Part shown: positions 1 through 63,472 of the stretch, piece by piece
Layout of the letters: every line of letters begins with the position of its first letter
How positions within the stretch are numbered: position 1 is the stretch's first letter
Assembly (NCBI RefSeq): GCF_003991155.1
Contig: NZ_CP031293.1
Length of the DNA stretch: 64,000 bases
Direction: 5' to 3' (one strand)
Source of the DNA: Escherichia coli
Lineage (GTDB): Bacteria > Pseudomonadota > Gammaproteobacteria > Enterobacterales > Enterobacteriaceae
Notes under the pieces: model-generated
What the model was told of the DNA's origin: nothing
The model's database searches: none
What the model saw: the letters and a program-made list of their open reading frames with translations, nothing else
Translations under genes and position numbers: made by a program

Positions 1-153
1 CAGTAAATCGATAAACACATCTTCACTATCCAGCAGGAACGGGTTCATGCCGGCTTTAATAATTGCTTCTTCACGATAAGCGCGAGTGGTACGTTTTACT
101 GGCTCAATAACACGAATGCGGAACGGTTCAGGGAGATGTTTAAAGTTTTCCAT
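1..153 (-). CDS. tnaA: tryptophanase, N-terminal 51 codons only (gene runs off the window start)
   Basis: Minus-strand translation from ATG at 151-153 gives [51 protein letters not shown], the TnaA N-terminus with one substitution versus the K-12 protein as recalled; an in-frame ATG also lies 15 nt upstream. Confidence 0.85.
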
Positions 154-359
154 TACGTAATCCTTCATTTATTTTAAGGACAGAAAATTACGGAGATATT
201 GCAAATGCAATACCCGATAGTTCGCTAAAATATTTGCAAGAGACATCATTTATAAAAATGAATGATAGTCTTTACAAAAGCAGAAATAAGATATGCCAAA
301 CAGACAGGTTAGATGGAATTCAATCTATTTGACAAAAATGATGGTTACAGAAAGGCAAG

Positions 360-434
360 TTAAGGGTGGTGTTCAACAATCTTGTTGTCGATATTGAACC
401 ATTTTGAGGTCACACATATATGTAAGATATTCAT
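360..434 (-). CDS. tnaC: tna operon leader peptide (24 aa, MNILHICVTSKWFNIDNKIVEHHP)
   Basis: Own translation of minus strand; W12, D16 and terminal P24 are conserved; positions 21 and 23 differ from K-12 TnaC as recalled (DHRP); ~206 nt spacer to tnaA start. Confidence 0.8.
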   Translation of the reverse strand: MNILHICVTSKWFNIDNKIVEHHP

Positions 435-3250: not shown

Positions 3251-3927
3251 CAGTGGCTGCTCCCTTTTATTTCGCGGATAAGTGTCTGTAATAACGCCGG
3301 CGTCAGTTTACCTTTAAGCCTGAGAGTTCCGGCCGGCAGAACCAGCTCACAACACAGACTGTCGGACGGTGTATTTATCTGCTCTGGTTCCTGTGCGGGG
3401 GCCGGGATTTTATTATCCGGCTCCGGCGTTAACGTCACGGGAAGCAGTGCCGGCATATTTTTTCCGGAAGGCAGCAGGCCACCTTTCCGGTATTGATGGC
3501 GCCAGTTGAAGAGCAGGTTATCGTTGATTCCGTTTTCCCGGGCGATCTGCGCCACACAGGCTCCGGGCTGCAGTGACTGCTCCACTAAGGCGATTTTAAA
3601 CTCATAAGGGAAGTTGGGCCGCCGGGGACGTTTTTTTACCACGGGGGCTTCGGATATAACGGTGCTTTCAGGACGTACGACTGGTACCGTGGAAAATTGT
3701 CCGTAAAGGCAGGCATCAAGTTCCTGCTCCGACATGCCTGCGGGCAAAGGCCACGAAAGGCCAGCTCTCCGAAAGCGCACGAACATACTACAAACTGTTG
3801 ATTTTGGTACACCCAGGCGACGCCCGGCCACAACCCGGGGTAAATGTTCTTCAAAGTGAAGACGTAAAGCTTCAGTGATCCAGGTCCGGTGTTTCATACG
3901 ATAGTGTCCATTAAAAATGATGGACAT
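3250..3927 (-). CDS. chimeric ORF: IS21-family IstA-like N-terminus (HTH + LSWPLPAGMSEQELDACLY) fused to IS66-family TnpA (orfA)
   Basis: C-terminal ~130 aa (PNFPYEFKIALVEQSLQPGACVAQIARENGINDNLLFNWR) is IS66 TnpA-like; N-terminal ~95 aa resembles IS21 IstA N-termini. Confidence 0.55.
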   Translation of the reverse strand: MSIIFNGHYRMKHRTWITEALRLHFEEHLPRVVAGRRLGVPKSTVCSMFVRFRRAGLSWPLPAGMSEQELDACLYGQFSTVPVVRPESTVISEAPVVKKRPRRPNFPYEFKIALVEQSLQPGACVAQIARENGINDNLLFNWRHQYRKGGLLPSGKNMPALLPVTLTPEPDNKIPAPAQEPEQINTPSDSLCCELVLPAGTLRLKGKLTPALLQTLIREIKGSSH

Positions 3928-3976
3928 TATTTTTGTAGAGCCGGAGGAAACAGACCAGACGGTTTAAATGAGCCGG

Positions 3977-4180
3977 TTACTTTCCCTCGCGCCATTGTTG
4001 TCGCCATTTGAACAACAGATTGGCGTTAATGCCATTTTCAAGAGCAAGTTTTGAGATGGATATCCCGGGTTCACAGGAGGCAGCAACGAGCTGCTGTTTA
4101 AATTCGGGAGGATAATTAGGGCAGCCTTTTCGCCTGCCGGGAGTCACATTTTTCTGCATATCTGACACTTTGGTTCCCAC
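3977..4180 (-). pseudogene. second IS66-family tnpA-like fragment (67 aa)
   Basis: PNYPPEFKQQLVAASCEPGISISKLALENGINANLLFKWRQQW is paralogous to the TnpA segment at 3250..3650; far shorter than intact TnpA. Confidence 0.5.
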
Positions 4181-4836
4181 TACTTATTTGGTGGACACCA
4201 CTTTGTCTAATTCGTCAGATTCTGACCAGACGGTTCAGGCTGTACGCTTACGTAGAACGCAGGTTCGTTTCGGTTCAGGATCGCGACAGTGCCCCCTCAC
4301 CTTCAGCTACAGTTCCCATAGAATTTTTTTCAGGTCAGTAATACTGGCTGCTGTTGTTGTCAGGATTTGATAGCTCATAAGCCCCGTTTGTCTTATTGGT
4401 ATAAGAGCATCTTTAAAAGCACTCTTAAAAGTACTCGTGTTGAAAAAACAGCCAGAACAAATGAAGTATGGCTCTTTCCGACAACTCTCTAAAACGTTCT
4501 GTAACACATTCTGAGCGTTTTTACGTCAGTTAGGCACGCCGCTCAGTGCTTCTGAGCGGCCTTGTTGCCGCGATCTGTTGTCCTGATCTTGATAAATGAA
4601 CATCAATACGGCGTTCCGTCAGTGTTTACAATAACTCCCAATTCATAACTACTTTTAACACATTTGTGTGATTCCCCCTTTCTGCTGAAAATATAGTTAT
4701 TTCCAATATAATCAATGAGTTTTATTAATTTGTTGATTTTTTTTTTCATGTTTTTTTTGTGATAATTATCATTTGAATGTGAATGTTGCTCCTGAATAAT
4801 GTTTATCAAAGTTGTCTGGTACGAGGGAGAAATTTC

Positions 4837-6099
4837 ATGGCTATCATCATGGGGATCATCGCTGACGATTTTACTGGCGCGACTGATATTGCCTGCTTTA
4901 TGGCAGAGAATGGTTTTCGGGTTGCGCTGTTGCCCGGTTTGCATGCACTCACGCAGTCATGGGATGAAGAGGCTGATGCAATAGTCATTTCACTGAAAAG
5001 TCGTTCATTACCCGCGAATCAGGCAATTGAGCAGACTTTGCTAAGTTATCATTGGTTGCGTGACTGTGCGGGGGCGCAGCAGATCTATTTCAAATATTGC
5101 TCAACATTTGATTCCACTGCAGATGGCAATATCGGCCCGGTCAGCGATGCACTGATGAAGGTGATGGGCACACCTTATGTCGTGCATTGTCCCGCTTTGC
5201 CCCAAAATGGCCGAACAGTTATCCATGGACATCTTTTTGTTAACGGTATACCCCTTAACGAATCCGGCATGGAAAAACACCCCCTGAATCCAATGACCGA
5301 CACTAACCTGCTGCGCGTACTGGCTGCACAAACCCCCAATAGAGTTGGTAATCTTGATCTGAGGACAGTTCAACAGGGCGAGCAAGCCATCACCACCGCA
5401 CTTTCCCGTTGTCAGGCTGAAGGGAAGCAACACATTATTGTCGATACATTAACTGAAAATGATCTGCAAAGCCTGGCAAATGTATTACGCCATACACCTT
5501 TACTGGCTGGGGGATCCGGACTGGGTGGGGCGTTAGCCGCTTTTTTACAGCAACATCCTTATACGCCAGCCTCCGCGTTTCCCAATCCTGCCAGAACGGT
5601 AATCTTCTCCGGAAGTTGTTCAGTGATGAGTAATCGACAGGTGGATGCTTATAAATCGCATGCAGCCACGCAGTTGCTTGATGTTGCTCGTTGTCTGGAC
5701 GATGGCAATAGATATATCGATCAATTACTTGAATGGACAATTGCGCACATCAATGATCCGCTTGCTCCGTTGATTTACGCCACTCAACCTGCGGATGTGT
5801 TGAAATCTATACAGCAAACCTGGGGTGAACACGCGGCAAGTAAAGCCATTGAACAAACTTTTGCGCAGCTTAGCCAAAAATTGCAGGTCGCGGGTGTCAA
5901 CACTTTTATTGTTGCTGGGGGAGAAACTTCCGGGACTGTAGTGGAAGCGCTAAATGTGAAACGGCTAACAGTGGGGAGCACTATTACGCCGGGCGTACCA
6001 TGGGTTTTTTCGGCAGAACCGCCCCTGGCACTGGCGCTGAAATCTGGCAATTTTGGGGAGCCTGATTTTTTCATTAAGGCTCAGGAGCATGGATTATGA
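4837..6099 (+). CDS. four-carbon acid-sugar kinase family protein (DUF1537; OtnK/YgbK-like 3-oxo-tetronate kinase homolog)
   Basis: N-terminal IADDFTGATD motif and overall length (420 aa) typical of DUF1537 kinases; RBS GAGGGAG upstream; stop overlaps next start. Confidence 0.75.
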   Translation: MAIIMGIIADDFTGATDIACFMAENGFRVALLPGLHALTQSWDEEADAIVISLKSRSLPANQAIEQTLLSYHWLRDCAGAQQIYFKYCSTFDSTADGNIGPVSDALMKVMGTPYVVHCPALPQNGRTVIHGHLFVNGIPLNESGMEKHPLNPMTDTNLLRVLAAQTPNRVGNLDLRTVQQGEQAITTALSRCQAEGKQHIIVDTLTENDLQSLANVLRHTPLLAGGSGLGGALAAFLQQHPYTPASAFPNPARTVIFSGSCSVMSNRQVDAYKSHAATQLLDVARCLDDGNRYIDQLLEWTIAHINDPLAPLIYATQPADVLKSIQQTWGEHAASKAIEQTFAQLSQKLQVAGVNTFIVAGGETSGTVVEALNVKRLTVGSTITPGVPWVFSAEPPLALALKSGNFGEPDFFIKAQEHGL

Positions 6100-11581: not shown

Positions 11582-11684
11582 GTCAGGTATAGTTTCTATA
11601 TTAAAGACGTTTACACATAATGGTGTACAGGCCCATTCAGAAACGGAACTGGGAATTTATTAACGGATAATCCGGAAACGTATT

Positions 11685-11716
11685 AAATGGCAGAAGGTAA
11701 CTACTTTCTGCCATTT
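11685..11716 (+). terminator. perfect 11-bp inverted repeat (AAATGGCAGAA / TTCTGCCATTT, 10-nt loop) ~105 nt downstream of the operon
   Basis: Seen directly; no clear T-tract follows, so terminator function is uncertain. Confidence 0.35.
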
Positions 11717-12101
11717 CACAGACAGGATGTACATATTAATCGGCCATGATGGTTGACATAAAAAATGCATCGGCAGTGATGTGGCAAGTTTTTCCCGGAC
11801 AATGTTTTTCTTCATCCCACTTGCAGAAAATATATAATATTATATTTTATATAACATTTTCTAACTCATTGAATACACTTGCAAATCTTCTCATTCTTAC
11901 TTAGAAATATTATTAATTTTAACGTTCTTTGTTGAATGTTTGTTTGGTTACAGCCATCTAATTTTTTAAATGCACAGTATCTGTGGATAACTTTGCGTAA
12001 ACACTGGGGACAGAGCTCGTTGAACCAGAGAAAGCACGCATGAAAACAAAATACTCATTCTTTAACCATTCTGTATAAGATCAGATGTCAGATCTGCTCA
12101 A

Positions 12102-12157
12102 TTCCGCTTTCCCGGTCACTGACTCGCTACGCTCGATCGTTCGGTTGCGGCGAGCGG
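12102..12157. other. ~56-bp segment resembling ColE1/pMB1-type plasmid backbone sequence
   Basis: TTCCGCTTTCCCGGTCACTGACTCGCTACGCTCGATCGTTCGGTTGCGGCGAGCGG versus pBR322/pUC backbone as recalled; roughly 50 of 56 positions match. Confidence 0.4.
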
Positions 12158-12455
12158 AGTCTCCTTTCTCAAAATCAGGCTTCGTGCATCTGGTCACAAA
12201 CCCGTATATCAATCATCATTGATGAGAAATTATCTTTATGAGGGCGTTTTTTTGGTTTCAGTTTTGCACGGAACCAGGAGATTTTTGGGAGTTGTTTTAT
12301 GTATGTTGTAAATAAAATTTTAATATTGACATCTACTGTACGTGCATAGAGTACGCCGGTGACCAACGTCAGCATTCCACTGTTCCAGTAACTAATTAAC
12401 GTAAGTGAAGTTATCGAGGAAGCAATACTGGATGGAGAAGTCGTCCTTGAGGTAT

Positions 12456-12737
12456 TCACTTTCCTTTCGTTCTGCCCATTAGTGGACAGCTAACTAGTGG
12501 CAGGACATCGGAGTACAGCACCTTCCCGTTGTTATTTATCAGCACGGCAGCTTTCTGGTTATTGACGAGCACAGTTTTCACGCCGCCGCCAAAGTTGTGG
12601 AAGACTCGCACCAGTGACTCATGGGTATGTTCAGCATCCTGTATGGGGCAGCAAAGAGATAGAAGCGACGTGAGAACCCCCTGCGTATTAGTCGCGAAGT
12701 TAATGCAGCATCGTTGTCTGACCAGTACCCCAGTCAT
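12456..12737 (-). pseudogene. IS21-family transposase IstA fragment (central DDE region, truncated)
   Basis: Translation ...QDAEHTHESLVRVFHNFGGGVKTVLVNNQKAAVLINNNGKV...GRTKGK closely parallels IS21 IstA and stops inside the TKGK(V)E motif; flanking frames 12738..13143 look like further degenerate remains. Confidence 0.6.
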
Positions 12738-13219
12738 GCTGGAGCTGGTAATCCGGCTGAGTTTTGAAGCGAACCGTTTTCTTCGATTTCCGTCTGGGAA
12801 GTAATCAGACTCAGCACGGACAAAAATTGCAGCGCCCGGATGGCACGGGTAATGGTCAGATTACCGGATGCGGATTAGGTGCCGCGTAGTGAAGCGCGCC
12901 GGATTCAGAGTCGCTAGTATGGTCATACAGCGAAGGAAAGCCGCCAATTTTTGTGCCGGACGTGGAATATACAGCGAATGCTGATGTAAAAGGCGCTCGT
13001 AATATTTTAGCTGCGGGACATACTGTGCTTGCCAGGGAAGGGATGGTGCAGTCAGACCACCCGTTGAAGCGAAATGAACCTGAACCATACGACAACCTGA
13101 AAGTAGCAGGAATCCACGCCCTGAAGGACGTGGAGGAAGTCAAATCGATGGTAGGTTGTAGGTTTATGGCAACATCTGCTTCATTAGATACATGTCGATA
13201 TACAGAACATATATCACAT

Positions 13220-15205: not shown

Positions 15206-15541
15206 ATGTTTAGAACAGAAGACATCATCGATGAGATAACCCAATGGATTGATTCAAATTTACATAAGCCGCTGAAGATAGAGGATGTTGCTGCGCGGGC
15301 AGGATACTCGAGGTGGCATCTTCAGCGGATTTTTGTGCAGGTGAGAGAAATTAGCCTTGGGAAGTACATAAGAGATACGAAACTTAGACTTGCAGCAAAA
15401 GATCTTATCGCGACTAATGAGCCAGTGATGGTTATCGCCTTTAAATATGGATTCGATTCACAACAAACTTTTACTCGGATTTTCTTTAAAAAATATAAAT
15501 TGCCACCATTGAAATATAGGGTAATGACTCCAACTTATTGA
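15206..15541 (+). CDS. MarA/SoxS/Rob-type small AraC-family regulator, 3' end replaced by IS1 sequence
   Basis: Two HTH regions (SRWHLQRIF... / ...QQTFTRIF) like SoxS; IS1 left end begins at 15520 inside the ORF so the last ~7 codons and the stop are IS1-derived. Confidence 0.7.
15511..15519. repeat. IS1 target-site duplication, left copy (GAAATATAG)
   Basis: Identical 9-mer directly flanks both IS1 ends. Confidence 0.8.
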
Positions 15542-16038
15542 TAGTGTTTTATGTTCAGATAATGCCCGATGACTTTGTCATGCAGCTCCACCGATTTTGA
15601 AAACGACAGCGACTTCCGTCCCAGCCGTGCCAGGTGCTGCCTCAGATTCAGGTTATGCCGCTCAATTCGCTGCGTATATCGCTTGCTGATTACGTGCAGC
15701 TTTCCCTTCAGGCGGGATTCATACAGCGGCCAGCCATCCGTCATCCATATCACCACGTCAAAGGGTGACAGCAGGCTCATAAGACGCCCCAGCGTCGCCA
15801 TAGTGCGTTCACCGAATACGTGCGCAACAACCGTCTTCCGGAGCCTGTCATACGCGTAAAACAGCCAGCGCTGGCGCGATTTAGCCCCGACGTATCCCCA
15901 CTGTTCGTCCATTTCCGCGCAGACGATGACGTCACTGCCCGGCTGTATGCGCGAGGTTACCGACTGCGGCCTGAGTTTTTTAAATGGCGGAAAATCGTGT
16001 TGAGGCCAACGCCCATAATGCGGGCGGTTGCCCGGCAT
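15535..16038 (-). CDS. insB: IS1 InsB (expressed as InsAB' by frameshift)
   Basis: 167-aa ORF matching IS1 InsB. Confidence 0.85.
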
Positions 16039-16232
16039 CCAACGCCATTCATGGCCATATCAATGATTTTCTGGTGCGTACCGGGTTGAGAAGCGGTGTA
16101 AGTGAACTGCAGTTGCCATGTTTTACGGCAATGAGAGCAGAGATAGCGCTGATGTCCGGCGGTGCTTTTGCCGTTACGCACCACTCCGTCAGTAGCTGAA
16201 CAGGAGGGACAGCTGATAGAAACAGAAGCCAC
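15957..16232 (-). CDS. insA: IS1 InsA
   Basis: [42 protein letters not shown]... Confidence 0.9.
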
Positions 16233-16287
16233 TGGAGCACCTCAAAAACACCATCATACACTAAATCAGTAAGTTGGCAGCATCACC

Positions 16288-16522: not shown

Positions 16523-17704
16523 TCAGATCTGCTCAGAAAGTGAATCAATGTAGTCAGCATACCACTGCATCATTTCACGGCGACCATCCAGATACTGGGC
16601 ATGATTATAGGTACCTCTGATAGCGTTTTTATCCATATGAGCTAACTGCATTTCAATCCAGGCAGAATTAAAGCCCTGTTCGTGCAGAATTGTACTCATG
16701 GTGTGTCTGAAACCGTGCCCTGTGAGTCTTCCCTTATATCCTAGTAATTCAATGACTTGGTTTATGCTTTCCTTACTAATTGGTTTGCGAGGATCGTTCC
16801 TACCGATAAAGACCAGAGGATGATGTTTTGAGATTGGTTCAAGTTGCTTAAATAGCGCAATGACCTGCTCAGAGAGCGGCACAATATGAGGTCGCTTCAT
16901 CTTCATTACTTCTGCCGGGATCTCCCATAATTTTGTCTCAAAATCGATATCCTCCCAGCGTGCGAAACGCAATTCTTGAGTTCGTACACCAGTTAGCATA
17001 ATGATTTGAGTGGCTGTCTTAGTGATAATACTTCCGGTATAACCCGCCAGATCATTGAGGAAGTGGGGAAGTTCATTAGCAGTAAGAAAGGGAAAATGTA
17101 CTTTTTTCGGTGTAGCTAAAGCACTGGCAAGATCGGGAGCAGGGTTGTAGTTAGCCCGACCAGTAACAATTGCATAGCGGAACACCTCTCCACAGCGCTG
17201 GCGGACCTTACGCATTTTCTCCAGAGCTCCACGTTTTTCCATTTTACGCAATGCTTCCAGTAACTCCATTGGTTTGATTTCAGCAATAGGGCGTTTGCCA
17301 ATATAGGGAAAAATATCTTTTTCAAAGGTATCAATGATTTCATCACGATAGCGTAATGACCACCGATCGGCTTTTGACTGATGCCATTCTCGAGCAACGG
17401 CCTCAAATGTGTTTTTCAAACTCATTTGCAGCGCGATTTTTTCTTCTTTTTTTGTCTCACCCGGATCGCATCCTGCAGCGAGGATTTTCCTAGCTTCACT
17501 GCGTTTTTCGCGAGCGTCGGCTAGAGTTACATCGGGGTATACGCCAATAGAAAGCATCTTTTCTTTGCCAGCAAAGCGGTACTTCATACGCCAATATTTA
17601 GAACCATTAGTGTTAATGAGTAGATACATACCGCCACCATCAGACAGCTTATAGGGCTTTTCTTTTGGTTTTGCGGTTTTCACTTTAATATCAGTTAACG
17701 CCAT
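16523..17704 (-). CDS. P4-type (CP4-like) tyrosine integrase
   Basis: 393 aa, C-terminal HGFRHT...Y catalytic signature; lies beside the 3' end of selC in the same orientation. Confidence 0.85.
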   Translation of the reverse strand: MALTDIKVKTAKPKEKPYKLSDGGGMYLLINTNGSKYWRMKYRFAGKEKMLSIGVYPDVTLADAREKRSEARKILAAGCDPGETKKEEKIALQMSLKNTFEAVAREWHQSKADRWSLRYRDEIIDTFEKDIFPYIGKRPIAEIKPMELLEALRKMEKRGALEKMRKVRQRCGEVFRYAIVTGRANYNPAPDLASALATPKKVHFPFLTANELPHFLNDLAGYTGSIITKTATQIIMLTGVRTQELRFARWEDIDFETKLWEIPAEVMKMKRPHIVPLSEQVIALFKQLEPISKHHPLVFIGRNDPRKPISKESINQVIELLGYKGRLTGHGFRHTMSTILHEQGFNSAWIEMQLAHMDKNAIRGTYNHAQYLDGRREMMQWYADYIDSLSEQI

Positions 17705-17999: not shown

Positions 18000-18094
18000 T
18001 GGCGGAAGATCACAGGAGTCGAACCTGCCCGGGACCGCTGGCGGCCCCAACTGGATTTGAAGTCCAGCCGCCTCACCGGAGACGACGATCTTCC
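18000..18094 (-). tRNA. selC: tRNA-Sec (selenocysteine)
   Basis: Reverse complement reads GGAAGATCGTCGTCTCCGGTGAGGCGGCTGGACTTCAAATCCAGTTGGGGCCGCCAGCGGTCCCGGGCAGGTTCGACTCCTGTGATCTTCCGCCA (95 nt, CCA end), matching E. coli selC as recalled. Confidence 0.9.
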
Positions 18095-52873: not shown

Positions 52874-53224
52874 AGTAAATAGCTGACTTATGGATGTGCT
52901 GGGGATTCTATGTATTTAGCTGTGGCTTTACCATTACTTTTCCCGTTTTTGACTTAAATAGCAATTTACCCGCCAATTCTTGCTGAACATCTATACTTTT
53001 TTTGTATTTTTATGCGATTCATTGATTTCTGCAGTACGTGCAGGAAGGAATCGCAGAGCAACAGTAAAAGAATATGGTTGCTAATGATTTTATTTGATTG
53101 ATTTCTTTATTGAAAATCAACAATGTGCTTAAAAATCATTCGGGTCGGATTGCCGCGAAAGAAGTGATACACTAGCGCGTCAATATCAGTGCGGTATCAG
53201 TATTCAGGTAGCTGTTGAGCCTGG

Positions 53225-53236
53225 GGCGGTAGCGTG
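53225..53236 (+). promoter_or_regulatory. ops element GGCGGTAGCGTG in the waaQ operon leader (RfaH recruitment site)
   Basis: Exact 12-mer ~50 nt upstream of waaQ start on the coding strand. Confidence 0.8.
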
Positions 53237-55465: not shown

Positions 55466-56255
55466 ACTTAAAGAGCCGTTTGCCACGTTATGGCGCGGTA
55501 AAGATCCTTTTGAGGAAGTTAAAACCTTGCAGGGTGAGGTATTTCGTGAACTGGAAACTCGCCGCACTCTGCGCTTTGAAATGGCGGGCAAAAGCTATTT
55601 TCTCAAATGGCATCGCGGCACGACCCTGAAAGAGATAATCAAAAATTTACTCTCATTGCGGATGCCAATATTAGGCGCAGACCGCGAATGGAATGCGATT
55701 CATCGACTGCGGGATGTCGGCGTTGATACTATGTATGGGGTGGCATTCGGCGAAAAAGGCATTAATCCGCTGACCAGAACCTCGTTTATTATTACCGAAG
55801 ATCTGACACCAACCATCAGTCTGGAAGATTACTGTGCTGACTGGGCGACCAACCCACCAGATGTTCGCGTAAAGCGTATGCTTATTAAGCGTGTCGCGAC
55901 GATGGTGCGCGATATGCATGCTGCGGGCATTAACCACCGTGACTGTTATATCTGTCATTTCCTGCTGCACTTGCCTTTTTCCGGTAAGGAAGAGGAGTTA
56001 AAAATTTCAGTAATTGACCTGCACCGGGCGCAGCTTCGCACGCGCGTTCCACGTCGTTGGCGCGATAAAGATCTTATTGGACTTTATTTTTCTTCGATGA
56101 ATATTGGCCTGACTCAACGGGATATCTGGCGGTTTATGAAAGTGTATTTTGTCGCCCCGCTTAAAGACATTCTCAAGCAGGAACAAGGGCTGCTGTCGCA
56201 AGCAGAAGAAAAAGCCACAAAAATCAGGGAAAGAACGATTCGAAAATCGTTGTAA
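55458..56255 (+). CDS. waaP: LPS core heptose(I) kinase
   Basis: 265 aa from [21 protein letters not shown]... Confidence 0.9.
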
Positions 56256-56270
56256 TTTCCGGAGAGAAAT

Positions 56271-57287
56271 ATGAGTGCCCACTATTTTAATCCACAAGAG
56301 ATGATCAATAAGACAATCATCTTCGATGAAAGGCCAGAGGCGTCAGTGGCATCATCATTCCATGTTGCTTATGGCATTGATCAGAACTTTCTTTTTGGTT
56401 GTGGTGTTTCAATCACGTCAGTTTTGTTACATAACAACGACGTGAGTTTTGTCTTCCACGTTTTTATTGATGATATCCCTGACGCCGATATCCAGCGTTT
56501 ATCCCAATTGGCGAAAAGCTATCATACCTGTATCCAGATCCATCTGGTAAATTGTGAACGGCTTAAGGTATTACCGACGACCAAAAATTGGTCTATTGCC
56601 ATGTATTTCCGTTTTGTAATTGCAGATTACTTTATTGATCAACAAGATAAGATCCTGTACCTGGATGCTGATATCGCCTGTCAGGGAACCTTAAAACCGC
56701 TGATAACAATGGATCTTGCCAATAGCGTTGCTGCTGTTGTTACTGAACGCGATGCTAACTGGTGGTCGTTACGGGCTCAAAGTCTGCAGTGTAATGAACT
56801 TGAAAAGGGTTACTTTAATTCAGGTGTCCTGTTAATTAATACACCTGCGTGGGCGCAGGAGTCCGTTTCTGCTAAAGCGATGTCGATGCTTGCTGATAAA
56901 GCCGTCGTTTCCCGTTTAACCTATATGGATCAAGATATACTAAATCTTATCCTGTTAGGGAAAGTTAAATTCATTGATGCTAAATACAATACGCAATTTA
57001 GTTTAAATTATGAATTAAAAAAATCATTTATTTGTCCAATTAATGATGAAACCGTATTAATTCATTATGTCGGCCCGACAAAACCCTGGCATTACTGGGC
57101 CGGTTATCCAAGCGCGCAGCCATTTATCAAAGCCAAAGAAGCATCGCCCTGGAAAAATGAACAGTTAATGCGGCCAATTAACTCAAATTATGCTCGTTAT
57201 TGCGCCAAGCATAATTTTAAACAAAATAAACCAATTAACGGGATAATGAATTATATTTATTATTTTTATTTAAAGATAATAAAATGA
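56271..57287 (+). CDS. waaO: GT8 LPS core alpha-1,3-glucosyltransferase (R1-type waaO position)
   Basis: 338-aa GT8 protein directly after waaP; gene order fits R1/R4 core types. Confidence 0.6.
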   Translation: MSAHYFNPQEMINKTIIFDERPEASVASSFHVAYGIDQNFLFGCGVSITSVLLHNNDVSFVFHVFIDDIPDADIQRLSQLAKSYHTCIQIHLVNCERLKVLPTTKNWSIAMYFRFVIADYFIDQQDKILYLDADIACQGTLKPLITMDLANSVAAVVTERDANWWSLRAQSLQCNELEKGYFNSGVLLINTPAWAQESVSAKAMSMLADKAVVSRLTYMDQDILNLILLGKVKFIDAKYNTQFSLNYELKKSFICPINDETVLIHYVGPTKPWHYWAGYPSAQPFIKAKEASPWKNEQLMRPINSNYARYCAKHNFKQNKPINGIMNYIYYFYLKIIK

Positions 57288-57303
57288 CATTGAGAAAAGT
57301 TAA

Positions 57304-58299
57304 ATGAATGAATTTATAAAAGAACGGTTTTCGTATTTAGCAGATAATAAAAAAGAAAACGTCCCAGAGCTAAATGTTTCCTACGGTATCGATAAGAATT
57401 TTTTGTATGGTGCTGGCGTTTCAATTTCTTCCGTTTTGATTAATAATTCAGATATTAATTTTGTCTTTCATGTTTTCACTGATTATGTGGATGATGATTA
57501 TTTAAAGTCATTTAATGAAACAGCAAAACAATTTAATACCTCAATTATTGTATATTTAATTGACCCAAAATACTTTGCTGATCTGCCGACGTCACAGTTT
57601 TGGTCGTACGCGACATACTTCAGGGTATTGTCCTTTGAATATCTGAGTGAAAGTATTTCCACACTGCTGTATCTGGATGCCGATGTCGTTTGTAAAGGAA
57701 GTCTGAAACCTCTCACAAAAATTATATTTAAAGATGAGTTTGCTGCGGTTATTCCTGACAATGATAGTACTCAGGCGGCATGTGCAAAACGTCTTAACAT
57801 TCCCGAAATGAATGGACGTTATTTCAATGCAGGCGTTATCTATGTCAATCTTAAAAAATGGCATGAAGCAAATTTGACACCGTATTTACTCACGCTTTTA
57901 CGAGGGGAAACTAAATATGGCTCTCTTAAATATTTAGATCAGGATGCGTTGAATATCGCATTTAATATGAATAATATCTACCTCGCGAAGGATTTTGATA
58001 CTATTTATACCCTGAAAAACGAACTTCATGATCGTAGTCATCGAAAGTATCAGCAAACCATTACCGATAAAACAGTATTGATTCACTATACAGGGATAAC
58101 TAAACCATGGCATAGCTGGGCTGGATATCCGTCTGCATCATACTTTAATATCGCGCGTGAACAATCTCCCTGGAAGAAATATCCTCTTAAAGAGGCGCGG
58201 ACTGTTGCAGAAATGCAGAAACAATATAAGCATCTGTTTGCCCATGGTGAGTATATAAAAGGCATAACTTCATTAATTAAGTACAAGCTTAAGAAATAA
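57304..58299 (+). CDS. waaT: GT8 LPS core alpha-1,2-galactosyltransferase (R1-type waaT position)
   Basis: 331-aa GT8 protein second after waaP, before waaY. Confidence 0.55.
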   Translation: MNEFIKERFSYLADNKKENVPELNVSYGIDKNFLYGAGVSISSVLINNSDINFVFHVFTDYVDDDYLKSFNETAKQFNTSIIVYLIDPKYFADLPTSQFWSYATYFRVLSFEYLSESISTLLYLDADVVCKGSLKPLTKIIFKDEFAAVIPDNDSTQAACAKRLNIPEMNGRYFNAGVIYVNLKKWHEANLTPYLLTLLRGETKYGSLKYLDQDALNIAFNMNNIYLAKDFDTIYTLKNELHDRSHRKYQQTITDKTVLIHYTGITKPWHSWAGYPSASYFNIAREQSPWKKYPLKEARTVAEMQKQYKHLFAHGEYIKGITSLIKYKLKK

Positions 58300-58308
58300 A
58301 TTACTCTT

Positions 58309-59001
58309 ATGATTACAAGTATACGTTACCGCGGCTTCTCATTTTATTACAAAAATAATGATAATAAATATAAAGAAATCTTTGATGAAATACTGGCCTA
58401 TAATTTTAAAACAGTAAAAGTATTACGTAATATTGATGATACCAAAGTATCGTTGATTGATACGAAATATGGTCGCTATGTTTTTAAAGTCTTTGCTCCG
58501 AAAACGAAAAGGAATGAACGTTTTTTAAAATCTTTTGTAAAAGGTGACTACTATCAGAATTTGATCGTTGAAACCGATCGTGTCAGAAGTGCAGGTCTTA
58601 CTTTTCCTAATGATTTTTATTTTCTGGCTGAGCGTAAAATTTTCAATTATGCCAGTGTTTTTATCATGCTTATCGAGTATGTCGAGGGCGTAGAGCTCAA
58701 TGATATGCCGATTATTCCAGAAGATGTTAAAGCAGAAATTAAGGCTTCAATGGAAAAATTGCATGCCTTAAATATGCTATCGGGCGACCCACACCGGGGT
58801 AACTTTATCGTTAGTAAAGATGGTGTCAGGATAATTGACCTATCCGGTAAAAGCTGTACGGCAGAGCGTAAAGCTCGTGATCGTCTGGCCATGGAACGTC
58901 ACCTGGGTATTGCCAACGAAATAAAAGATTATGGCTACTATTCAGTAATCTACAGAACCAAACTACGCAAATTTATTAAAAAATTAAAAGGCAAAGCGTA
59001 A
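58309..59001 (+). CDS. waaY: LPS core heptose(II) kinase
   Basis: 230 aa, WaaY-like kinase (MITSIRYRGFSFYYKNND...). Confidence 0.75.
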   Translation: MITSIRYRGFSFYYKNNDNKYKEIFDEILAYNFKTVKVLRNIDDTKVSLIDTKYGRYVFKVFAPKTKRNERFLKSFVKGDYYQNLIVETDRVRSAGLTFPNDFYFLAERKIFNYASVFIMLIEYVEGVELNDMPIIPEDVKAEIKASMEKLHALNMLSGDPHRGNFIVSKDGVRIIDLSGKSCTAERKARDRLAMERHLGIANEIKDYGYYSVIYRTKLRKFIKKLKGKA

Positions 59002-59026
59002 ACCACACAGTCAAAACGGAACCAAC

Positions 59027-60055
59027 ATGGATTTATTAGCTGAGAGTATTACTGAAGTCGCTGTCTCTGGGGAAATTGCTAACACCGATCGTGTGTTAAA
59101 TATCGCTTACGGTATTGACCGCAACTTTTTATTTGGTGCAGCAGTATCTATGCAATCAGTTGTTATGCATAACCCGGATCTTGCGGTTAAGTTTCATCTC
59201 TTTACTGACTACATTGATGAAGATTATCTACAACGTGTTAATGCTTTTACCAGCAAAAATGCTAACGTTGAAGTAAGAATTTATAAAGTATCCAGTGCCT
59301 TTATTGATATCTTCCCCAGCCTGAAACAGTGGTCTTATGCAACATTCTTCCGTTTAGTTGCGTTCCAGTATCTGAGTGAAACTATTGAAAATCTGTTATA
59401 TATCGATGCTGATGTCATCTGTAAAGGCTCATTAGCTGGATTGCTTGATATTAATTTTGATGGCGATAAATTCGCAGCTGTTATTAAAGATGTGCCTTTT
59501 ATGCAGGAAAAACCAGCGAAGCGTCTGGCTATAGAGGGGCTTCCAGGGAATTATTTCAACGCCGGTGTAGTATATCTGCAGCTTGAAGCGTGGGCGAAAA
59601 ATGATTTTATGAATAAAGCCATTGCTATGCTGGCAAGTGACCCGCAGCACACGAAGTATAAATGCCTTGATCAGGATATTTTAAATATTCTGTTCTTTGG
59701 TCATTGTATTTTTATTAGCGGCGATTATGATTGCTTTTATGGCATTGACTATGAGTTAAAAAATAAAAGCGATGAAGATTATAAAAAGACCATTACCGAT
59801 GATACTAAGCTGATTCATTATGTTGGCGTAACGAAGCCCTGGAACGACTGGACGAATTATCCCTGCCAGAAGTATTTTAATGAGGCTTATCAGGCTTCTT
59901 GCTGGAATGATGTGGCGTTTATTCCAGCCACGAATGAAAAGCAGTATCAAGTGAAATACCAACATGCAAAGAAAAATGGTGATACGTTTAACGCTTTTAT
60001 TTACTTCATTAAATTCAAATTAAATAAGTATAAAAGAAAACTATTTAGGCAATAA
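59027..60055 (+). CDS. waaW: GT8 LPS core glycosyltransferase (R1-type waaW position)
   Basis: 342-aa GT8 protein after waaY. Confidence 0.55.
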   Translation: MDLLAESITEVAVSGEIANTDRVLNIAYGIDRNFLFGAAVSMQSVVMHNPDLAVKFHLFTDYIDEDYLQRVNAFTSKNANVEVRIYKVSSAFIDIFPSLKQWSYATFFRLVAFQYLSETIENLLYIDADVICKGSLAGLLDINFDGDKFAAVIKDVPFMQEKPAKRLAIEGLPGNYFNAGVVYLQLEAWAKNDFMNKAIAMLASDPQHTKYKCLDQDILNILFFGHCIFISGDYDCFYGIDYELKNKSDEDYKKTITDDTKLIHYVGVTKPWNDWTNYPCQKYFNEAYQASCWNDVAFIPATNEKQYQVKYQHAKKNGDTFNAFIYFIKFKLNKYKRKLFRQ

Positions 60056-60136
60056 TAAAAATTATGGATGTCTAAGTTACAATAATAATTAAGGATGAGT
60101 CCTATCATATTTTATTAGTTCAGGCAAGAGAACACG

Positions 60137-61120
60137 ATGAGCAATGATTACCCTTTAGTATCCATAATAATACCGACGTATAATTCATCTGATTACATTA
60201 CTGAAACTCTAACGAAATTAGAAAAACAAACTTACCCAAATTTTGAAATTGTTATTGTTAATGATGGTTCTAAAGATAACACATCAAATGTTTTGAGAGA
60301 GTATGGGTTAACCCACTCTCGATTAATTATTATCAATAAAGAAAATGGCGGTGTTTCGTCTGCCAGGAATACAGGTATCCGCAAGGCGCAAGGACAGTTT
60401 ATATGTTTTATGGATGATGATGATGAGATAGATCCTAACTATCTGCTGAAGATGTATTCCAGACAACATGAGACGGGAGGGGATGCGATTTATTGTGGGC
60501 TTTATGGACATCATATAAAAAATGGTGTTACTTACTCACCTATAAATACAGATTTTAATGAAGGGTCTTTACTTTTCGATTTTTTTTATAAAAAGGTCAG
60601 ATTCCATATAGGGTGCTTGTTTATAAGAAAACAACTCCTGGAAGATAATAATCTTTTTTTTGATGAAGATTTACGACTAGGAGAAGATCTGGATTTTATC
60701 TATCGACTGCTAATTACATGCGATATGTATGCGGTTCCATATTATATGTATAAGCATAACTATAGAGAAAATTCCCTAATGAACTCATGTAGAACCATCA
60801 CTCATTATCGACATGAGTCATTTGCGCACGAAAGAATCTACTCTTCTGTGATGCAGTTATACAAAGGTAACCGGAAAGAAGAAATTCATACATTATTGAG
60901 TAAAAATAGAACTTATCATAAAACTCGTTATTTATGGAATGTTCTACTTAATGGCGATTTTGAATTATTAAATCAATTAGTTGAAAGCAATGAAAAAGAA
61001 TTGAAAGATTGTAATCTTCTTGGCAAGAGAGATAAGAGGCGAGCAAAAATATTAGCATCAAAAAACTATATTCTCTGGAGGATGGTAAGACTGGTAAATA
61101 GAAAAAAGAATAAACGTTAG
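60137..61120 (+). CDS. waaV: GT2 LPS outer-core beta-glycosyltransferase (R1-type waaV position)
   Basis: 327 aa with GT2 motifs (IIIPTYNSSDYI, VNDGSKDNT, DDDDEID). Confidence 0.5.
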   Translation: MSNDYPLVSIIIPTYNSSDYITETLTKLEKQTYPNFEIVIVNDGSKDNTSNVLREYGLTHSRLIIINKENGGVSSARNTGIRKAQGQFICFMDDDDEIDPNYLLKMYSRQHETGGDAIYCGLYGHHIKNGVTYSPINTDFNEGSLLFDFFYKKVRFHIGCLFIRKQLLEDNNLFFDEDLRLGEDLDFIYRLLITCDMYAVPYYMYKHNYRENSLMNSCRTITHYRHESFAHERIYSSVMQLYKGNRKEEIHTLLSKNRTYHKTRYLWNVLLNGDFELLNQLVESNEKELKDCNLLGKRDKRRAKILASKNYILWRMVRLVNRKKNKR

Positions 61121-61165
61121 GTCTTGCATTAAATAACCCATCCTCGTAGCATAGGTTGAAATTAT

Positions 61166-62419
61166 ATGTCGTTTTGTTGGAAAGAAATTAACTCTGGTGT
61201 CAAGTCTTTAATTCTCATATTATGTATGTTGTCTTTAATGACTTTGTCTTTGTGGGATGATGTTGCAACAAAGTTTCTTCATGCAGCTGGAATTATATCT
61301 GCATTATATTTTCTAGCGACAGCAAAAAAAACAATAACTAATAATCCTACTTTGTTAATTTTTATCTCATTATGTCTTTTGGGTATCGTTAATATCATCT
61401 GGTATTCACATTATAAAGTTTCAGGCTCGGTTTATACCAATGCATATCGTGGCCCAATGGAAACTGGAAAAATTGCCTTGTGTAGTGCTTTTATTTTCTT
61501 AGTTCTTTTTGCTAAAGATGAGATGAGAACAAAAATAAAATTTGGGAAACTAATTCTGTTCGCATCCCTGGCAACGCAGTTACTTTTTTTTGCGCATGCC
61601 ATGTGGCAACATTTCTATTTAAACGTAGACCGTGTTGCATTATCAGCTTCCCACGCTACAACAGCAGGCTACATCATCCTTTTCCCTTCTTTACTGGCAT
61701 CAATTCTCATTTTAAAATGCGACTTTAGACATAAAACAACATTATATACAATTAACTTCATGCTTAGCTTATGTGCTGTCATAGTAACTGAAACGCGTGC
61801 AGCCATATTAGTGTTTCCATTCTTTGCGTTACTATTAATCGTAATGGATAGTTATATTAATAAGCGAATTAATTATAAGTTATATTGTTTTATTGCGATT
61901 GCATTATTAGCAGGTGTGTTTTCTTTTAAAGATACATTGCTTATGAGAATGAATGACTTAAATAACGATTTAGTTAATTATTCGCATGATAACACCAGAA
62001 CTTCAGTCGGTGCCCGTCTGGCAATGTATGAAGTTGGTTTAAAAACATATTCTCCAATAGGACAATCACTGGAAAAACGCGCGGAAAAAATACATGAACT
62101 AGAAGAGAAAGAGCCTAGATTAAGTGGCGCTTTACCCTTTGTAGATTCTCATTTGCATAACGATCTCATAGATACGTTATCAACGCGTGGTATTCCTGGA
62201 GTAGTATTAACAATTTTAGCCTTTTCAGCAATATTCATATATGCCTTAAGAACTGCTAAAGAACCTTATATTTTAATCTTGCTTTTTTCACTACTGGTAG
62301 TAGGCCTAAGTGATGTAATACTCTTTTCTAAACCGGTTCCGACTGCTGTGTTTGTCACCATAATATTGCTTTGTGCTTATTTTAAAGCACAATCGGACCA
62401 ATGTTTATTAGATAAGTAA
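61166..62419 (+). CDS. waaL: O-antigen ligase
   Basis: 417-aa polytopic membrane protein at the end of the waaQ-direction gene string. Confidence 0.75.
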   Translation: MSFCWKEINSGVKSLILILCMLSLMTLSLWDDVATKFLHAAGIISALYFLATAKKTITNNPTLLIFISLCLLGIVNIIWYSHYKVSGSVYTNAYRGPMETGKIALCSAFIFLVLFAKDEMRTKIKFGKLILFASLATQLLFFAHAMWQHFYLNVDRVALSASHATTAGYIILFPSLLASILILKCDFRHKTTLYTINFMLSLCAVIVTETRAAILVFPFFALLLIVMDSYINKRINYKLYCFIAIALLAGVFSFKDTLLMRMNDLNNDLVNYSHDNTRTSVGARLAMYEVGLKTYSPIGQSLEKRAEKIHELEEKEPRLSGALPFVDSHLHNDLIDTLSTRGIPGVVLTILAFSAIFIYALRTAKEPYILILLFSLLVVGLSDVILFSKPVPTAVFVTIILLCAYFKAQSDQCLLDK

Positions 62420-62429
62420 TGAATATGTG

Positions 62430-62461
62430 AAATAAAATCAGCAAGGAAGCTGATTTTATTT
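62430..62461. terminator. perfect 13-bp inverted repeat between convergent waaL and waaC (bidirectional terminator candidate)
   Basis: AAATAAAATCAGC-AAGGAA-GCTGATTTTATTT, A/T runs on both sides. Confidence 0.7.
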
Positions 62462-62488
62462 CAAAATTATCTATTAAAGAGTTGTAAT

Positions 62489-63469
62489 TTAAATCATGGC
62501 AGCTTTTTCAGCGTTTTCTTCAATGAATTGCTTAACAGCATTTGCTGTCAATTGAGACAACTCATTCCCCGGAGCCCTACAAACCATCTGATTCTTCCCA
62601 TACCCGCCAATTAATCCCGGATCGGTAGGTCCATAAACCGTGATATTGGGTCTATCCAGTGCCGCCGTTAAATGGCTTAACCCCGTATCCACCGACACTA
62701 CAAATTTAGCTCCGGCCAGCACGCGGGCAACGCCTTCCAGACTCATCTTCGGCAATACTTCAACATAAGCAAATCCTTCCGCCAGTCGTTTCGCCCGTTC
62801 TTCCTCATGCGGCGCGCCCCACGGAAGTTTAATCCGTATTCCTGAATCAGCCAGTAAACCAATCAATTCTCGCCAGTGTTCTTCCGGCCAGTGTTTATCA
62901 TCACGGGTCGTCGCATGAAGAAATACGGCATATTCGCCAGCATCTGTAGGCCGGTTCGTCAGGAAATGCTGTGCGATAGCATAATCGCCCTGGGTTTGCG
63001 GTTTGCTATAGCCCAGACTTTTGGCAAACAGTTCGCGGGTGCGTTCTACGGCGTGCTGCTGTTTTGCAATATGATGCTTACGATTGTAAAACAGGCTGGC
63101 TAAAGGTTCGCGAGCGGTTTGCCAGTCCATGCCATGCTTTACGCCATGCGCCAGACGCGTCACCAGCGCCGCGCTTTTTACCAGCCCCTGAGCATCGATA
63201 ACTGCGTCATAGTTCTCTGCTTGTAGCGCTTCACGAAACGCTTTGCGTTCAGCTTTTATGGGGGCCGAGAACCAGGCTTTACGCCAGCGACGTATTGCCA
63301 CAGGAATAACTCGCTCAACGGCAGCGTGCCAGGAAGGAATCTGTGCGAACCCTTCTTCCACCACCCAGTCAAACTTAATTCCTGGGATTGCCTGCTGGGC
63401 ATCAGTGAGTGCGGGCAACGTATGGAGAACATCGCCCATCGACGATGTTTTAACGATCAAAACCCGCAT
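62489..63469 (-). CDS. waaC: LPS heptosyltransferase I
   Basis: MRVLIVKTSSMGDVLHTLPALTDAQQAIPGIKFDWVVEEGF... Confidence 0.95.
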   Translation of the reverse strand: MRVLIVKTSSMGDVLHTLPALTDAQQAIPGIKFDWVVEEGFAQIPSWHAAVERVIPVAIRRWRKAWFSAPIKAERKAFREALQAENYDAVIDAQGLVKSAALVTRLAHGVKHGMDWQTAREPLASLFYNRKHHIAKQQHAVERTRELFAKSLGYSKPQTQGDYAIAQHFLTNRPTDAGEYAVFLHATTRDDKHWPEEHWRELIGLLADSGIRIKLPWGAPHEEERAKRLAEGFAYVEVLPKMSLEGVARVLAGAKFVVSVDTGLSHLTAALDRPNITVYGPTDPGLIGGYGKNQMVCRAPGNELSQLTANAVKQFIEENAEKAAMI

Positions 63470-63472
63470 CCG

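What the first reader, a model, noticed from the sequence alone, without database searches (positions are those of the whole stretch)
12102..12157. Short plasmid-backbone-like segment (ColE1/pMB1 type) inside the island
About 56 bp match, with a handful of mismatches, a stretch I recall from pBR322/pUC backbones (CTTCCGCTTCCTCGCTCACTGACTCGCTGCGCTCGGTCGTTCGGCTGCGGCGAGCGG). Similarity fades on both sides. This could be a scar of an integrated mobilisable replicon or a conserved structured site. Because the sequence is common in vectors, contamination or chimeric assembly must also be considered.
Basis: partly seen in the sequence, partly recalled or inferred. Interest (0 to 1): 0.4.

Follow-up and report, generated by a model that had tools for sequence, protein, structure and literature searches.

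The report
Orphan plasmid primosome-assembly site relic
The 56-bp "vector-like" stretch is real chromosomal DNA: it is the conserved core of a plasmid priming signal (a PriA-type primosome assembly site), left in a decayed scrap of an IncX-like plasmid inside an E. coli genomic island, which is an ordinary relic and not contamination.

Summary
Window 12102-12157 matches the pMB1/pUC origin-proximal sequence at 50/56 positions, far beyond chance.

- **What the 56-mer is.** It is the near-invariant core of the phiX174-type (PriA-dependent) primosome assembly site, called ssiA or n'-pas. This core is shared by ColE1-like, IncX1, IncX4 and other small enterobacterial plasmids.
- **Closest relatives.** They are IncX1 plasmids, not ColE1. 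Window 11968-12178 aligns at about 80% to the IncX1 segment that carries a DnaA box and the PAS just beyond the iterons. It joins directly, across a roughly 850-bp deletion, to a fragment of the neighbouring relE/parE toxin gene.
- **What is missing.** There are no iterons, no rep gene, and no RNAI/RNAII.
- **Setting.** The scrap lies among other debris: a dqlB remnant and IS21, IncFII RepA and TnpB fragments. All of it sits in an island next to tRNA-Sec (selC).
- **Not an artefact.** The region is 100% identical in 21 independent complete E. coli chromosomes, so contamination and chimeric assembly are excluded.
- **Structure and function.** Hairpin and covariation tests were inconclusive. Function here is most likely nil.

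Known kind of element, low interest.

The parts
12102..12157 (-). 56-nt conserved core of a phiX174-type (PriA-dependent) primosome assembly site (ssiA / n'-pas type). The minus strand carries the AAGCGG motif (plus-strand CCGCTT at 12104-12109).
   Evidence: 50/56 identities to pMB1. 51/56 to the consensus of 16 plasmid copies from ColE1-like, IncX1, IncX4 and other plasmids. It occupies the ssiA position in pMUT1, about 85-156 bp beyond the inferred RNA/DNA switch. GAAGCGG is present in the phiX174 viral-strand F-G intergenic hairpin.
12096..12178 (-). Extended PAS similarity, including the IncX-type flank (minus strand TTTTGAGAAAGGAGAC).
   Evidence: 91% over 78 bp to IncX1 pMTY12355, 85% over 72 bp to pMUT1.
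11968..12178 (+). Block homologous to the distal edge of the IncX1 (R6K-like) iteron origin: second DnaA box through the PAS.
   Evidence: 80.3% over 213 bp to L002 4918-5129; 78-79% to three other IncX1 records and four contigs. In L002 the order is rep(-) 3513-4349, 22-bp iterons 4494-4719, AT-rich segment, DnaA boxes at about 4893 and 4932, PAS 5052-5129.
11982..11990 (-). Perfect DnaA box (TTATCCACA on the minus strand; TGTGGATAA on the plus strand).
   Evidence: Regex search. The 20-mer CTGTGGATAACTTTGCGTAA is shared exactly with IncX1 origins.
12171..12278 (+). Degenerate fragment of a relE/parE-family toxin gene (stbDE module), joined directly to the PAS block. 12171-12178 is a short microhomology at the deletion junction.
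   Evidence: DNA 81-87% over 59-68 bp to relE of IncX1, IncX4 and IncF plasmids. tblastn against RelE residues 52-81: 42% over 36 aa, E 4e-4. About 850 bp (stbD plus 5' relE) are missing relative to IncX1.
4253..4594 (-). A second piece of an stbDE module (stbD codons 1-43, frameshifted, plus upstream region). It is inverted and lies on the far side of the 7-kb metabolic operon.
   Evidence: 80% over 374 bp to L002 5338-5710, 87% to IncX4 L011, 82-89% to IncF plasmids L032/L033.
11636..11804 (+). Remnant of the 3' end and downstream region of a dqlB (DinQ-like type I toxin) locus of IncI/K-type conjugative plasmids. The toxin ORF is not intact.
   Evidence: 73% over about 170 bp.
12354..12787 (.). 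IS21-family istA fragment.
   Evidence: 73% to ISEc62 istA. RefSeq annotates it as a pseudogene or IS21 family transposase.
12782..12874 (-). IncFII RepA gene fragment (31 codons).
   Evidence: RefSeq annotation of the identical sequence in NZ_CP041996.1.
12921..13084 (+). InsQ/TnpB gene fragment.
   Evidence: RefSeq annotation.

Best explanation
The 56 bp are the conserved core of a plasmid single-strand initiation signal of the phiX174 type, i.e. a PriA-dependent primosome assembly site homologous to ColE1/pMB1 ssiA. On plasmids the site sits next to the origin. When origin unwinding makes its AAGCGG-bearing strand single-stranded, PriA recognises it and recruits PriB, DnaT, DnaB/DnaC and DnaG to prime DNA synthesis (established for ColE1 and phiX174; inferred for IncX). 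The window copy belongs to a roughly 260-bp decayed scrap of an IncX1-like plasmid backbone: DnaA box, PAS, then a microhomology-mediated deletion, then a relE fragment. The scrap has lost its iterons and rep gene. It lies in a patch of plasmid and IS debris in a genomic island next to selC in one E. coli lineage. It is genuine chromosomal sequence and most probably an inert relic.
For: Shown by tools:
- Homology to thousands of plasmid copies.
- In 5,426 complete E. coli genomes, 2,933 of 2,980 matching places are on plasmids.
- The same core sits at the ssiA position of a ColE1-type plasmid, anchored by the Rfam RNAI hit, and between rep/iterons and stbDE in IncX1 and IncX4 plasmids.
- The 56-nt core is nearly invariant across replicon families while the flanks diverge.
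- Window 11968-12178 is about 80% identical to the IncX1 origin edge, including a perfect DnaA box, and 12171-12229 matches relE in the IncX order and orientation.
- The window has no pir-like rep, no iteron motif and no RNAI.
- The region is 100% identical in 21 complete chromosomes, next to an integrase gene and tRNA-Sec.

From the literature: ssiA/n'-pas is exposed by Pol I extension and recruits PriA (PMC3167613). ColE1-like plasmids carry an approximately 82-nt ssi beside oriV (PMC5935869). ssi signals were reported in F, R6K, R100 and ColE2 (Nomura 1991, as cited in PMC7690428). A 66-bp 'phiX174 primosome assembly site' was identified in the small E. coli plasmids pColZ and pHUSEC2011-3 (PMC6668396).
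Against: - No structural signal could be demonstrated. DNA folding energies of either strand are no better than shuffles, with z between -0.6 and +0.8.
- Covariation on 17 sequences is not significant, and RNAalifold prefers a different pairing.
- The strand assignment rests on ColE1 geometry, a recalled AAGCGG consensus and the phiX174 sequence.
- No plasmid closer than about 80% was found for the IncX-like block, so the donor lineage is unidentified.
- stbDE modules also occur on IncF plasmids without the PAS. The relE fragment is in fact slightly closer to the relE of IncF plasmid L032 (86.8% over 68 bp) than to IncX4 (83%) or IncX1 (81%) relE, which weakens it as evidence for IncX ancestry.
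- The core keeps 51/56 consensus positions, two of the changes could be a compensatory G-C to A-T pair, and AAGCGG is intact. Residual activity therefore cannot be excluded.
Confidence: 0.82

Rival explanations
1. Scar of an integrated ColE1/pMB1-type mobilisable replicon.
For: The 56-mer is 89% identical to pMB1 and 85% identical over 72 bp to ColE1-type pMUT1. 3,299 of the top 5,000 plasmid hits are predicted mobilizable, and the small ones inspected are ColE1-like.
Against: ColE1-type similarity stops at the PAS, covering 72 bp. There is no RNAI hit even at E<=1 and no rop or mob gene. The left flank (DnaA box) and the right flank (relE) match the IncX1 backbone in order and orientation.
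Confidence: 0.04
2. Cloning-vector contamination or a chimeric assembly junction.
For: The sequence family is present in nearly all pMB1-derived vectors.
Against: There are 6 mismatches to pMB1 within 56 bp and no further vector sequence. The 2.5-kb region is 100% identical in 21 independently sequenced complete chromosomes at the same locus. The window-specific variant is absent from all plasmids searched: none of the top 5,000 plasmid hits reaches 95% identity.
Confidence: 0.01
3. A still-functional PAS retained by the island. It could serve as a PriA loading or re-priming site on the chromosome, or prime complementary-strand synthesis if the island is excised and transferred as single-stranded DNA.
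For: The core diverged much less than its flank (5/56 against about 20%), AAGCGG is intact, and two substitutions (G>A at 12121, C>T at 12136 on the minus strand, alignment columns 42 and 51) keep a possible pair. An integrase gene is present in the island.
Against: Slower core divergence is equally explained by selection while the sequence was still on a plasmid. Everything around it is truncated debris. No transfer or replication genes are annotated in the part of the island examined. GC skew and the position relative to dnaA put the AAGCGG strand on the leading-strand template, which is not routinely single-stranded. The site is confined to one lineage, 21 of 5,426 genomes.
Confidence: 0.1
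4. Part of the IncFII replicon whose RepA fragment lies about 625 bp to the right, i.e. an IncFII origin-associated priming site.
For: An IncFII RepA fragment lies at 12782-12874 on the minus strand, so the PAS would be 'downstream' of repA. IncF plasmids are reported to carry ssi signals (PMC7690428).
Against: An IS21 fragment separates the two. The 213-bp block around the PAS matches IncX1 origins next to pir-like rep genes and 22-bp iterons, not IncFII. The PAS abuts a relE fragment, as in IncX. IncFII reference plasmids were not examined directly.
Confidence: 0.03

Closest known systems
ColE1/pMB1 ssiA (n'-pas, the 'L-strand' primosome assembly site about 150 bp downstream of ori)
   Same: Same 56-nt core: 50/56 identities to pMB1 and 51/56 to the family consensus, with the AAGCGG motif. 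The presumed mechanism is the same: PriA recognises the single-stranded site and then loads DnaB and DnaG.
   Different: The window has no ColE1 origin (RNAII/RNAI), rop or mob. Its flanks are of IncX type. The copy is an orphan on a chromosome.
Origin-proximal PAS of IncX1/IncX4 plasmids (the R6K family, in which ssi signals were reported by Nomura et al. 1991)
   Same: Closest relatives. The order and orientation DnaA box - PAS - (stbD) - relE are the same. Identity is about 80% over 213 bp and 91% over the 78-bp PAS.
   Different: Iterons, the AT-rich opening region (not recognisably conserved), the pir-like rep gene, stbD and most of relE are missing. No plasmid closer than about 80% was found. 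In IncX the polarity implies that a primer made at the site is extended away from the iterons (leading-strand-type priming), which is an inference and was not tested.
phiX174 complementary-strand origin (n' / PriA recognition hairpin in the F-G intergenic region)
   Same: Same functional class (the prototype PAS). It shares the GAAGCGG motif on the recognised strand.
   Different: There is no alignable similarity beyond the heptamer, and the hairpin architecture differs.
G4-type (primase-only) and Frpo-type (RNA polymerase) ssi signals of conjugative plasmids
   Same: They are also single-strand initiation signals near origins or in leading regions.
   Different: They use different recognition proteins and have no sequence similarity. 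They are not what is present here.

Membership tests
phiX174-type primosome assembly site (ssiA / n'-pas) of enterobacterial plasmids | Sequence homology to the ColE1/pMB1 ssiA core | tested here: met
   50/56 to pMB1, 51/56 to the 16-plasmid consensus, BLAST E down to 9e-24.
phiX174-type primosome assembly site (ssiA / n'-pas) of enterobacterial plasmids | AAGCGG motif on the recognised single strand (consensus recalled from the literature) | tested here: met
   The minus strand reads GGAAAGCGGAAT (plus-strand CCGCTT at 12104-12109). GAAGCGG is present on the phiX174 viral strand.
phiX174-type primosome assembly site (ssiA / n'-pas) of enterobacterial plasmids | Stable hairpin structure of the single strand | tested here: inconclusive
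   A CGCTCG/CGAGCG hairpin with an inner 3-bp stem can be drawn. However, folding z-scores are about 0, covariation does not exceed the shuffles, and RNAalifold proposes another pairing. The sequences are too conserved to decide.
phiX174-type primosome assembly site (ssiA / n'-pas) of enterobacterial plasmids | Position beside a replication origin, so that origin unwinding exposes it | tested here: not met
   This is met in the plasmid relatives. In the window only a DnaA box remains: no iterons, no rep, no RNAII.
phiX174-type primosome assembly site (ssiA / n'-pas) of enterobacterial plasmids | PriA-dependent conversion of single-stranded to double-stranded DNA, or PriA ATPase effector activity | not testable with these tools
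   This needs an M13 ori-defective plaque assay or a PriA biochemical assay.
ColE1/pMB1-type replicon | RNAI/RNAII primer-antisense pair | tested here: not met
   Rfam RNAI is found in pMUT1 but not in the window, either at gathering score or at E<=1.
ColE1/pMB1-type replicon | rop, mob or cer accessory functions, or backbone similarity beyond the PAS | tested here: not met
   None are annotated. ColE1-type similarity is limited to 12102-12173.
IncX (R6K-like) plasmid backbone | Synteny DnaA box - PAS - stbD - relE on the side of the iteron origin away from rep | tested here: met
   Order and orientation are kept, with an internal deletion of about 850 bp.
IncX (R6K-like) plasmid backbone | 22-bp iterons and a pir-like initiator gene | tested here: not met
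   No iteron family was found in 11583-12300. No iteron motif and no tblastn hit to IncX1 or IncX4 Rep was found anywhere in the window. It is therefore a remnant, not a replicon.

The most novel reading that the evidence does not exclude
The orphan PAS may still be active. Sitting on the leading-strand template of the chromosome, or on an excised island strand, it could act as a sequence-specific PriA entry or re-priming site. More broadly, the 56-nt core may behave as a horizontally exchanged 'priming cassette': it is identical in otherwise unalignable replicons (IncX1 pMTY12355 versus ColE1-like pMRSN346595_5.3), and islands can capture it.
Probability: 0.07. Interest if true: 0.4.

Novelty: already known. 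Interest (0 to 1): 0.1.

Why it matters
It matters little biologically. It adds one more example of plasmid debris in an E. coli genomic island.

The practical value is for annotation and quality control. A short, near-vector-identical motif in a chromosome need not signal contamination, because the ssiA/PAS core is shared by many natural plasmid families and can survive as an orphan. The core also went unannotated in every record inspected. The 'annotated features under the match' column reads 'none' for almost all hits, although PLSDB's gene table lists only protein-coding genes. A simple model of the 56-nt core would label thousands of plasmid origins.

Tried and rejected
Alignment was used instead.
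- **Single-sequence DNA folding** of both strands of the window, IncX1 and pMUT1 copies gave z-scores of about 0 and no usable signal.
- **Covariation** on a 17-sequence alignment with a hand-drawn four-helix model gave 80% of cells paired, but no measure exceeded the shuffles. RNAalifold gave a different structure with no compensatory pairs. The structure is left open.
- **Search for a closer donor plasmid:**
  - The viral-contig scan gave 3 loci. One was spurious (L009) and none was closer.
  - The genome-contig scan with the DnaA-box 20-mer gave 9 loci, the best at 78-79%.
  - The metagenome scan for the window-specific 28-mer gave 0.
- **Reference records not held** in the collections: R6K (LT827129), pCS36-4CPA (KM373703) and pHUSEC2011-3 (HE610902).
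- **Literature dead ends.** The supplement with the annotated ssiA sequence is not held. A literature search for AAGCGG returned only incidental primer sequences.
- **Is the metabolic operon plasmid cargo?** It has no plasmid match.
- **A single inversion** that would reunite the stbD fragment at 4253-4594 with the relE fragment at 12171 was considered. No single inversion restores the IncX order, so two stbDE copies or several events are needed. This was not resolved.
- **Apparent paradox** of tnaA lying next to selC. It was partly resolved by seeing that the record starts at dnaA and runs toward selC.

Full report
**Observation**

The window at 12102-12157 reads TTCCGCTTTCCCGGTCACTGACTCGCTACGCTCGATCGTTCGGTTGCGGCGAGCGG. 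A local alignment shows why: there are 50/56 identities, so 6 mismatches, and the alignment extends to 12096-12173. The recalled pMB1/pUC sequence is genuine, since a 287-nt version hits real records at 100%.

The match is not chance. The core pattern occurs once in the window and never in 100 shuffles.

**Source of the window, and the contamination question**

The 2.5 kb around the site is 100% identical, over its full length, in 21 of 5,426 complete E. coli genomes. In all 21 it lies on the chromosome at the same locus. The strains come from humans, cattle, dogs, pigs, sheep, mink and wastewater.

In NZ_CP041996.1 the site falls in an unannotated gap. On one side is a metabolic operon, running from otnK to an aspartate/glutamate racemase-family gene. 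On the other side is a run of pseudogene fragments, followed by a tyrosine integrase gene and tRNA-Sec. Rfam places tRNA-Sec at window 18004-18094 on the minus strand.

The copy differs from pMB1 at 6 of 56 positions, and no other vector sequence is present. Contamination and chimeric assembly are therefore excluded as far as can be judged without reads.

**What the 56-mer is**

- **ColE1-type plasmids.** In pMUT1 (L004) the match at 1050-1121 lies between rop (790-984) and the origin. Rfam places RNAI at 1651-1752. RNAI starts about 445 nt upstream of the RNA/DNA switch (established knowledge of ColE1). This puts the origin near 1206 and the match about 85-156 bp downstream of it, in the direction of leading-strand synthesis. 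That is where ssiA, the n'-pas primosome assembly site, lies.
- **Literature.** Pol I extension exposes ssiA, and PriA then assembles the primosome (PMC3167613). ColE1-like plasmids carry an approximately 82-nt ssi beside oriV (PMC5935869). A 66-bp 'phiX174 primosome assembly site' was identified in the small E. coli plasmids pColZ and pHUSEC2011-3 (PMC6668396). ssi signals were reported for F, R6K, R100 and ColE2 (Nomura 1991, cited in PMC7690428).
- **Conservation.** I aligned 17 copies on the minus strand. The 56-nt core is CCGCTCGCCGCAGCCGAACGACCGAGCGTAGCGAGTCAGTGAGCGAGGAAGCGGAA. Most ColE1-like, IncX1, IncX4 and other small-plasmid copies show 0-3 differences from it, while both flanks diverge beyond recognition.
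- **Distribution.** In complete E. coli genomes the family occurs at 2,980 places, of which 2,933 are on plasmids and 47 on chromosomes. Twenty-one of the chromosomal places are this island.

**Which strand is recognised**

In ColE1 the site must act on the displaced strand, the lagging-strand template. That strand has RNAII polarity, which is the minus strand in the window's orientation. This strand carries GGAAGCGGAA. The AAGCGG hexamer is the motif I recall as common to n' sites. The phiX174 viral strand does carry GAAGCGG in its F-G intergenic hairpin. The strand assignment is therefore an inference supported from two sides.

**Not ColE1 but IncX-like**

- **Extent of similarity.** ColE1-type similarity is confined to 72 bp. 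The best matches are IncX1 plasmids. Window 11968-12178 aligns to pMTY12355 (L002) 4918-5129 at 80.3% over 213 bp, and similarly to three more IncX1 records.
- **Layout in IncX1.** In L002 the order is: the pir-like rep gene (3513-4349, minus strand), six 22-bp iterons (4494-4719), an AT-rich segment, two DnaA boxes, then the PAS.
- **What the window keeps.** It retains a perfect DnaA box at 11982-11990 within a 20-mer shared exactly with IncX1.
- **The relE junction.** Immediately after the PAS, window 12171-12229 matches L002 5977-6033 inside the relE/parE gene, at 81% on DNA. By tblastn the match is 42% over 36 aa. About 850 bp comprising stbD and 5' relE are therefore missing. The two alignments overlap by 8 bp (AAAAYCA-type microhomology), as expected for an illegitimate deletion.
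- **IncX4.** These plasmids show the same synteny: rep, then the PAS, then a relE-family toxin gene, with stbD annotated between them in one of the two annotated records.
- **What is absent.** The window has no iteron family. It has no iteron motif and no Rep, and the only StbD homologue lies elsewhere in the window. It has no RNAI, even at E<=1.
- **Donor not found.** No closer donor turned up. All relatives stay at about 78-80% in PLSDB, in the complete E. coli genomes, and in the nine loci returned by a scan of the GTDB species-representative genome contigs. The window-specific 28-mer is absent from the metagenome collection.

**Surroundings**

The site sits in a patchwork of mobile-element debris:

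| Window coordinates | What it is |
|---|---|
| 11636-11804 | 3' remnant of a dqlB type I toxin locus of IncI/K plasmids |
| 12354-12787 | IS21 istA fragment |
| 12782-12874 | IncFII RepA fragment |
| 12921-13084 | TnpB fragment |
| 4253-4594 | Second stbDE piece (stbD codons 1-43 plus upstream), inverted |

The second stbDE piece lies on the other side of the metabolic operon. This interval falls inside the segment deleted between the PAS and relE, and no single inversion restores the IncX order. The island therefore probably received more than one stbDE-bearing fragment. stbDE also occurs on IncF plasmids without the PAS. The metabolic operon itself has no plasmid counterpart.

**State of the copy**

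The window core differs from the consensus at 5 of 56 positions, against about 20% divergence in the adjacent IncX-like flank. Two of the changes (alignment columns 42 G>A and 51 C>T) would convert a possible G-C pair into A-T. Other plasmids vary the neighbouring pair in a compatible way: T-A in four, C-G in one. AAGCGG is intact.

The structure cannot be established from these data. Folding energies of either strand are no better than shuffles. No covariation measure exceeds the controls. RNAalifold prefers a different helix, which the window's G>C change would break. The slower divergence of the core is adequately explained by selection while the sequence was still on a plasmid.

**Likely function here**

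GC skew is positive along the whole window. The record starts at dnaA and runs toward selC. Chromosomal forks therefore move left to right, and the AAGCGG strand is the leading-strand template, which is not routinely single-stranded. With no origin, no initiator and no transfer genes nearby, the most likely status is an inert relic. Residual PriA binding cannot be excluded without an assay.

**A note on IncX polarity (inference)**

With the iterons to the left and the recognised strand being the minus strand, a primer made at the PAS would be extended away from the iterons, while DnaB loaded there would move toward them. This resembles leading-strand priming downstream of the origin, as I recall for the G-site of plasmid R1, rather than the ColE1 lagging-strand arrangement. 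It was not tested.

**Verdict**

The stretch is plasmid-derived and is a conserved site. It is not a ColE1 scar and not an artefact. It is a known kind of element, the ssiA-type primosome assembly site, surviving as an orphan in an IncX-like scrap within a selC island. Novelty: already known. Interest: low.

Noticed in passing
window 15518-16287: An IS1 copy (98.8% to IS1A of L002) is present in the window but absent from NZ_CP041996.1. It explains why tRNA-Sec is at 18004-18094 here rather than about 17223-17317, as the reference record's coordinates would predict.
   Followed up: partly
window 4253-4594 (minus strand): A frameshifted stbD 5' half plus its upstream region lies between an IS66 remnant and otnK, inverted relative to the relE fragment at 12171-12278. 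It is 80-89% identical to IncX1, IncX4 and IncF stbDE modules. The 7-kb metabolic operon is thus bracketed by pieces of stbDE modules, and no single inversion restores an intact module.
   Followed up: partly
window 11636-11804: A 73%-identical remnant of the 3' end and downstream hairpin region of a dqlB (DinQ-like type I toxin) locus typical of IncI/K conjugative plasmids. The toxin ORF is not intact.
   Followed up: partly
window 1-434: tnaA (5' part) and tnaC lie at the left end of the window, about 95 kb from dnaA on the selC side. In K-12 the tna operon lies on the other side of dnaA (my recollection). This is either a second or relocated tna copy, or part of a roughly 65-kb insertion between dnaA and selC.
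   Followed up: partly
window 12175-12375 (minus strand): RefSeq annotates a 66-aa hypothetical protein (WP_061092942.1) that overlaps the relE remnant on the opposite strand. It is probably a spurious ORF call in debris.
   Followed up: no
L002 5052-5129, L011 2501-2569, L014 301-373 and other plasmid loci: The 56-nt PAS core is identical in IncX1 pMTY12355 and in ColE1-like and other small plasmids whose flanks are unalignable. This suggests either extreme constraint from host PriA or exchange of the site as a module. The site carried no annotated feature in almost all hit records, although PLSDB's gene table lists only protein-coding genes.
   Followed up: partly
L002 4494-5129; L011 838-2569: In IncX plasmids the AAGCGG strand of the PAS is oriented so that a primer made there would be extended away from the iterons. 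This is opposite to the ColE1 lagging-strand geometry and implies a different use of the same signal (an inference).
   Followed up: no
window 53198-53236 and 56001-64000: There is a JUMPstart RNA element (Rfam RF01707, 55 bits), followed by a low-GC stretch (0.37-0.40). It probably marks a polysaccharide or LPS-core operon.
   Followed up: no
L006 (CP023137.2) 145-239: The IncX1 copy in K. pneumoniae KpvK54 has 14 differences in the 3' half of the core, including an indel. It is either a degenerate copy or a sequence-quality problem in that unannotated linear record.
   Followed up: no
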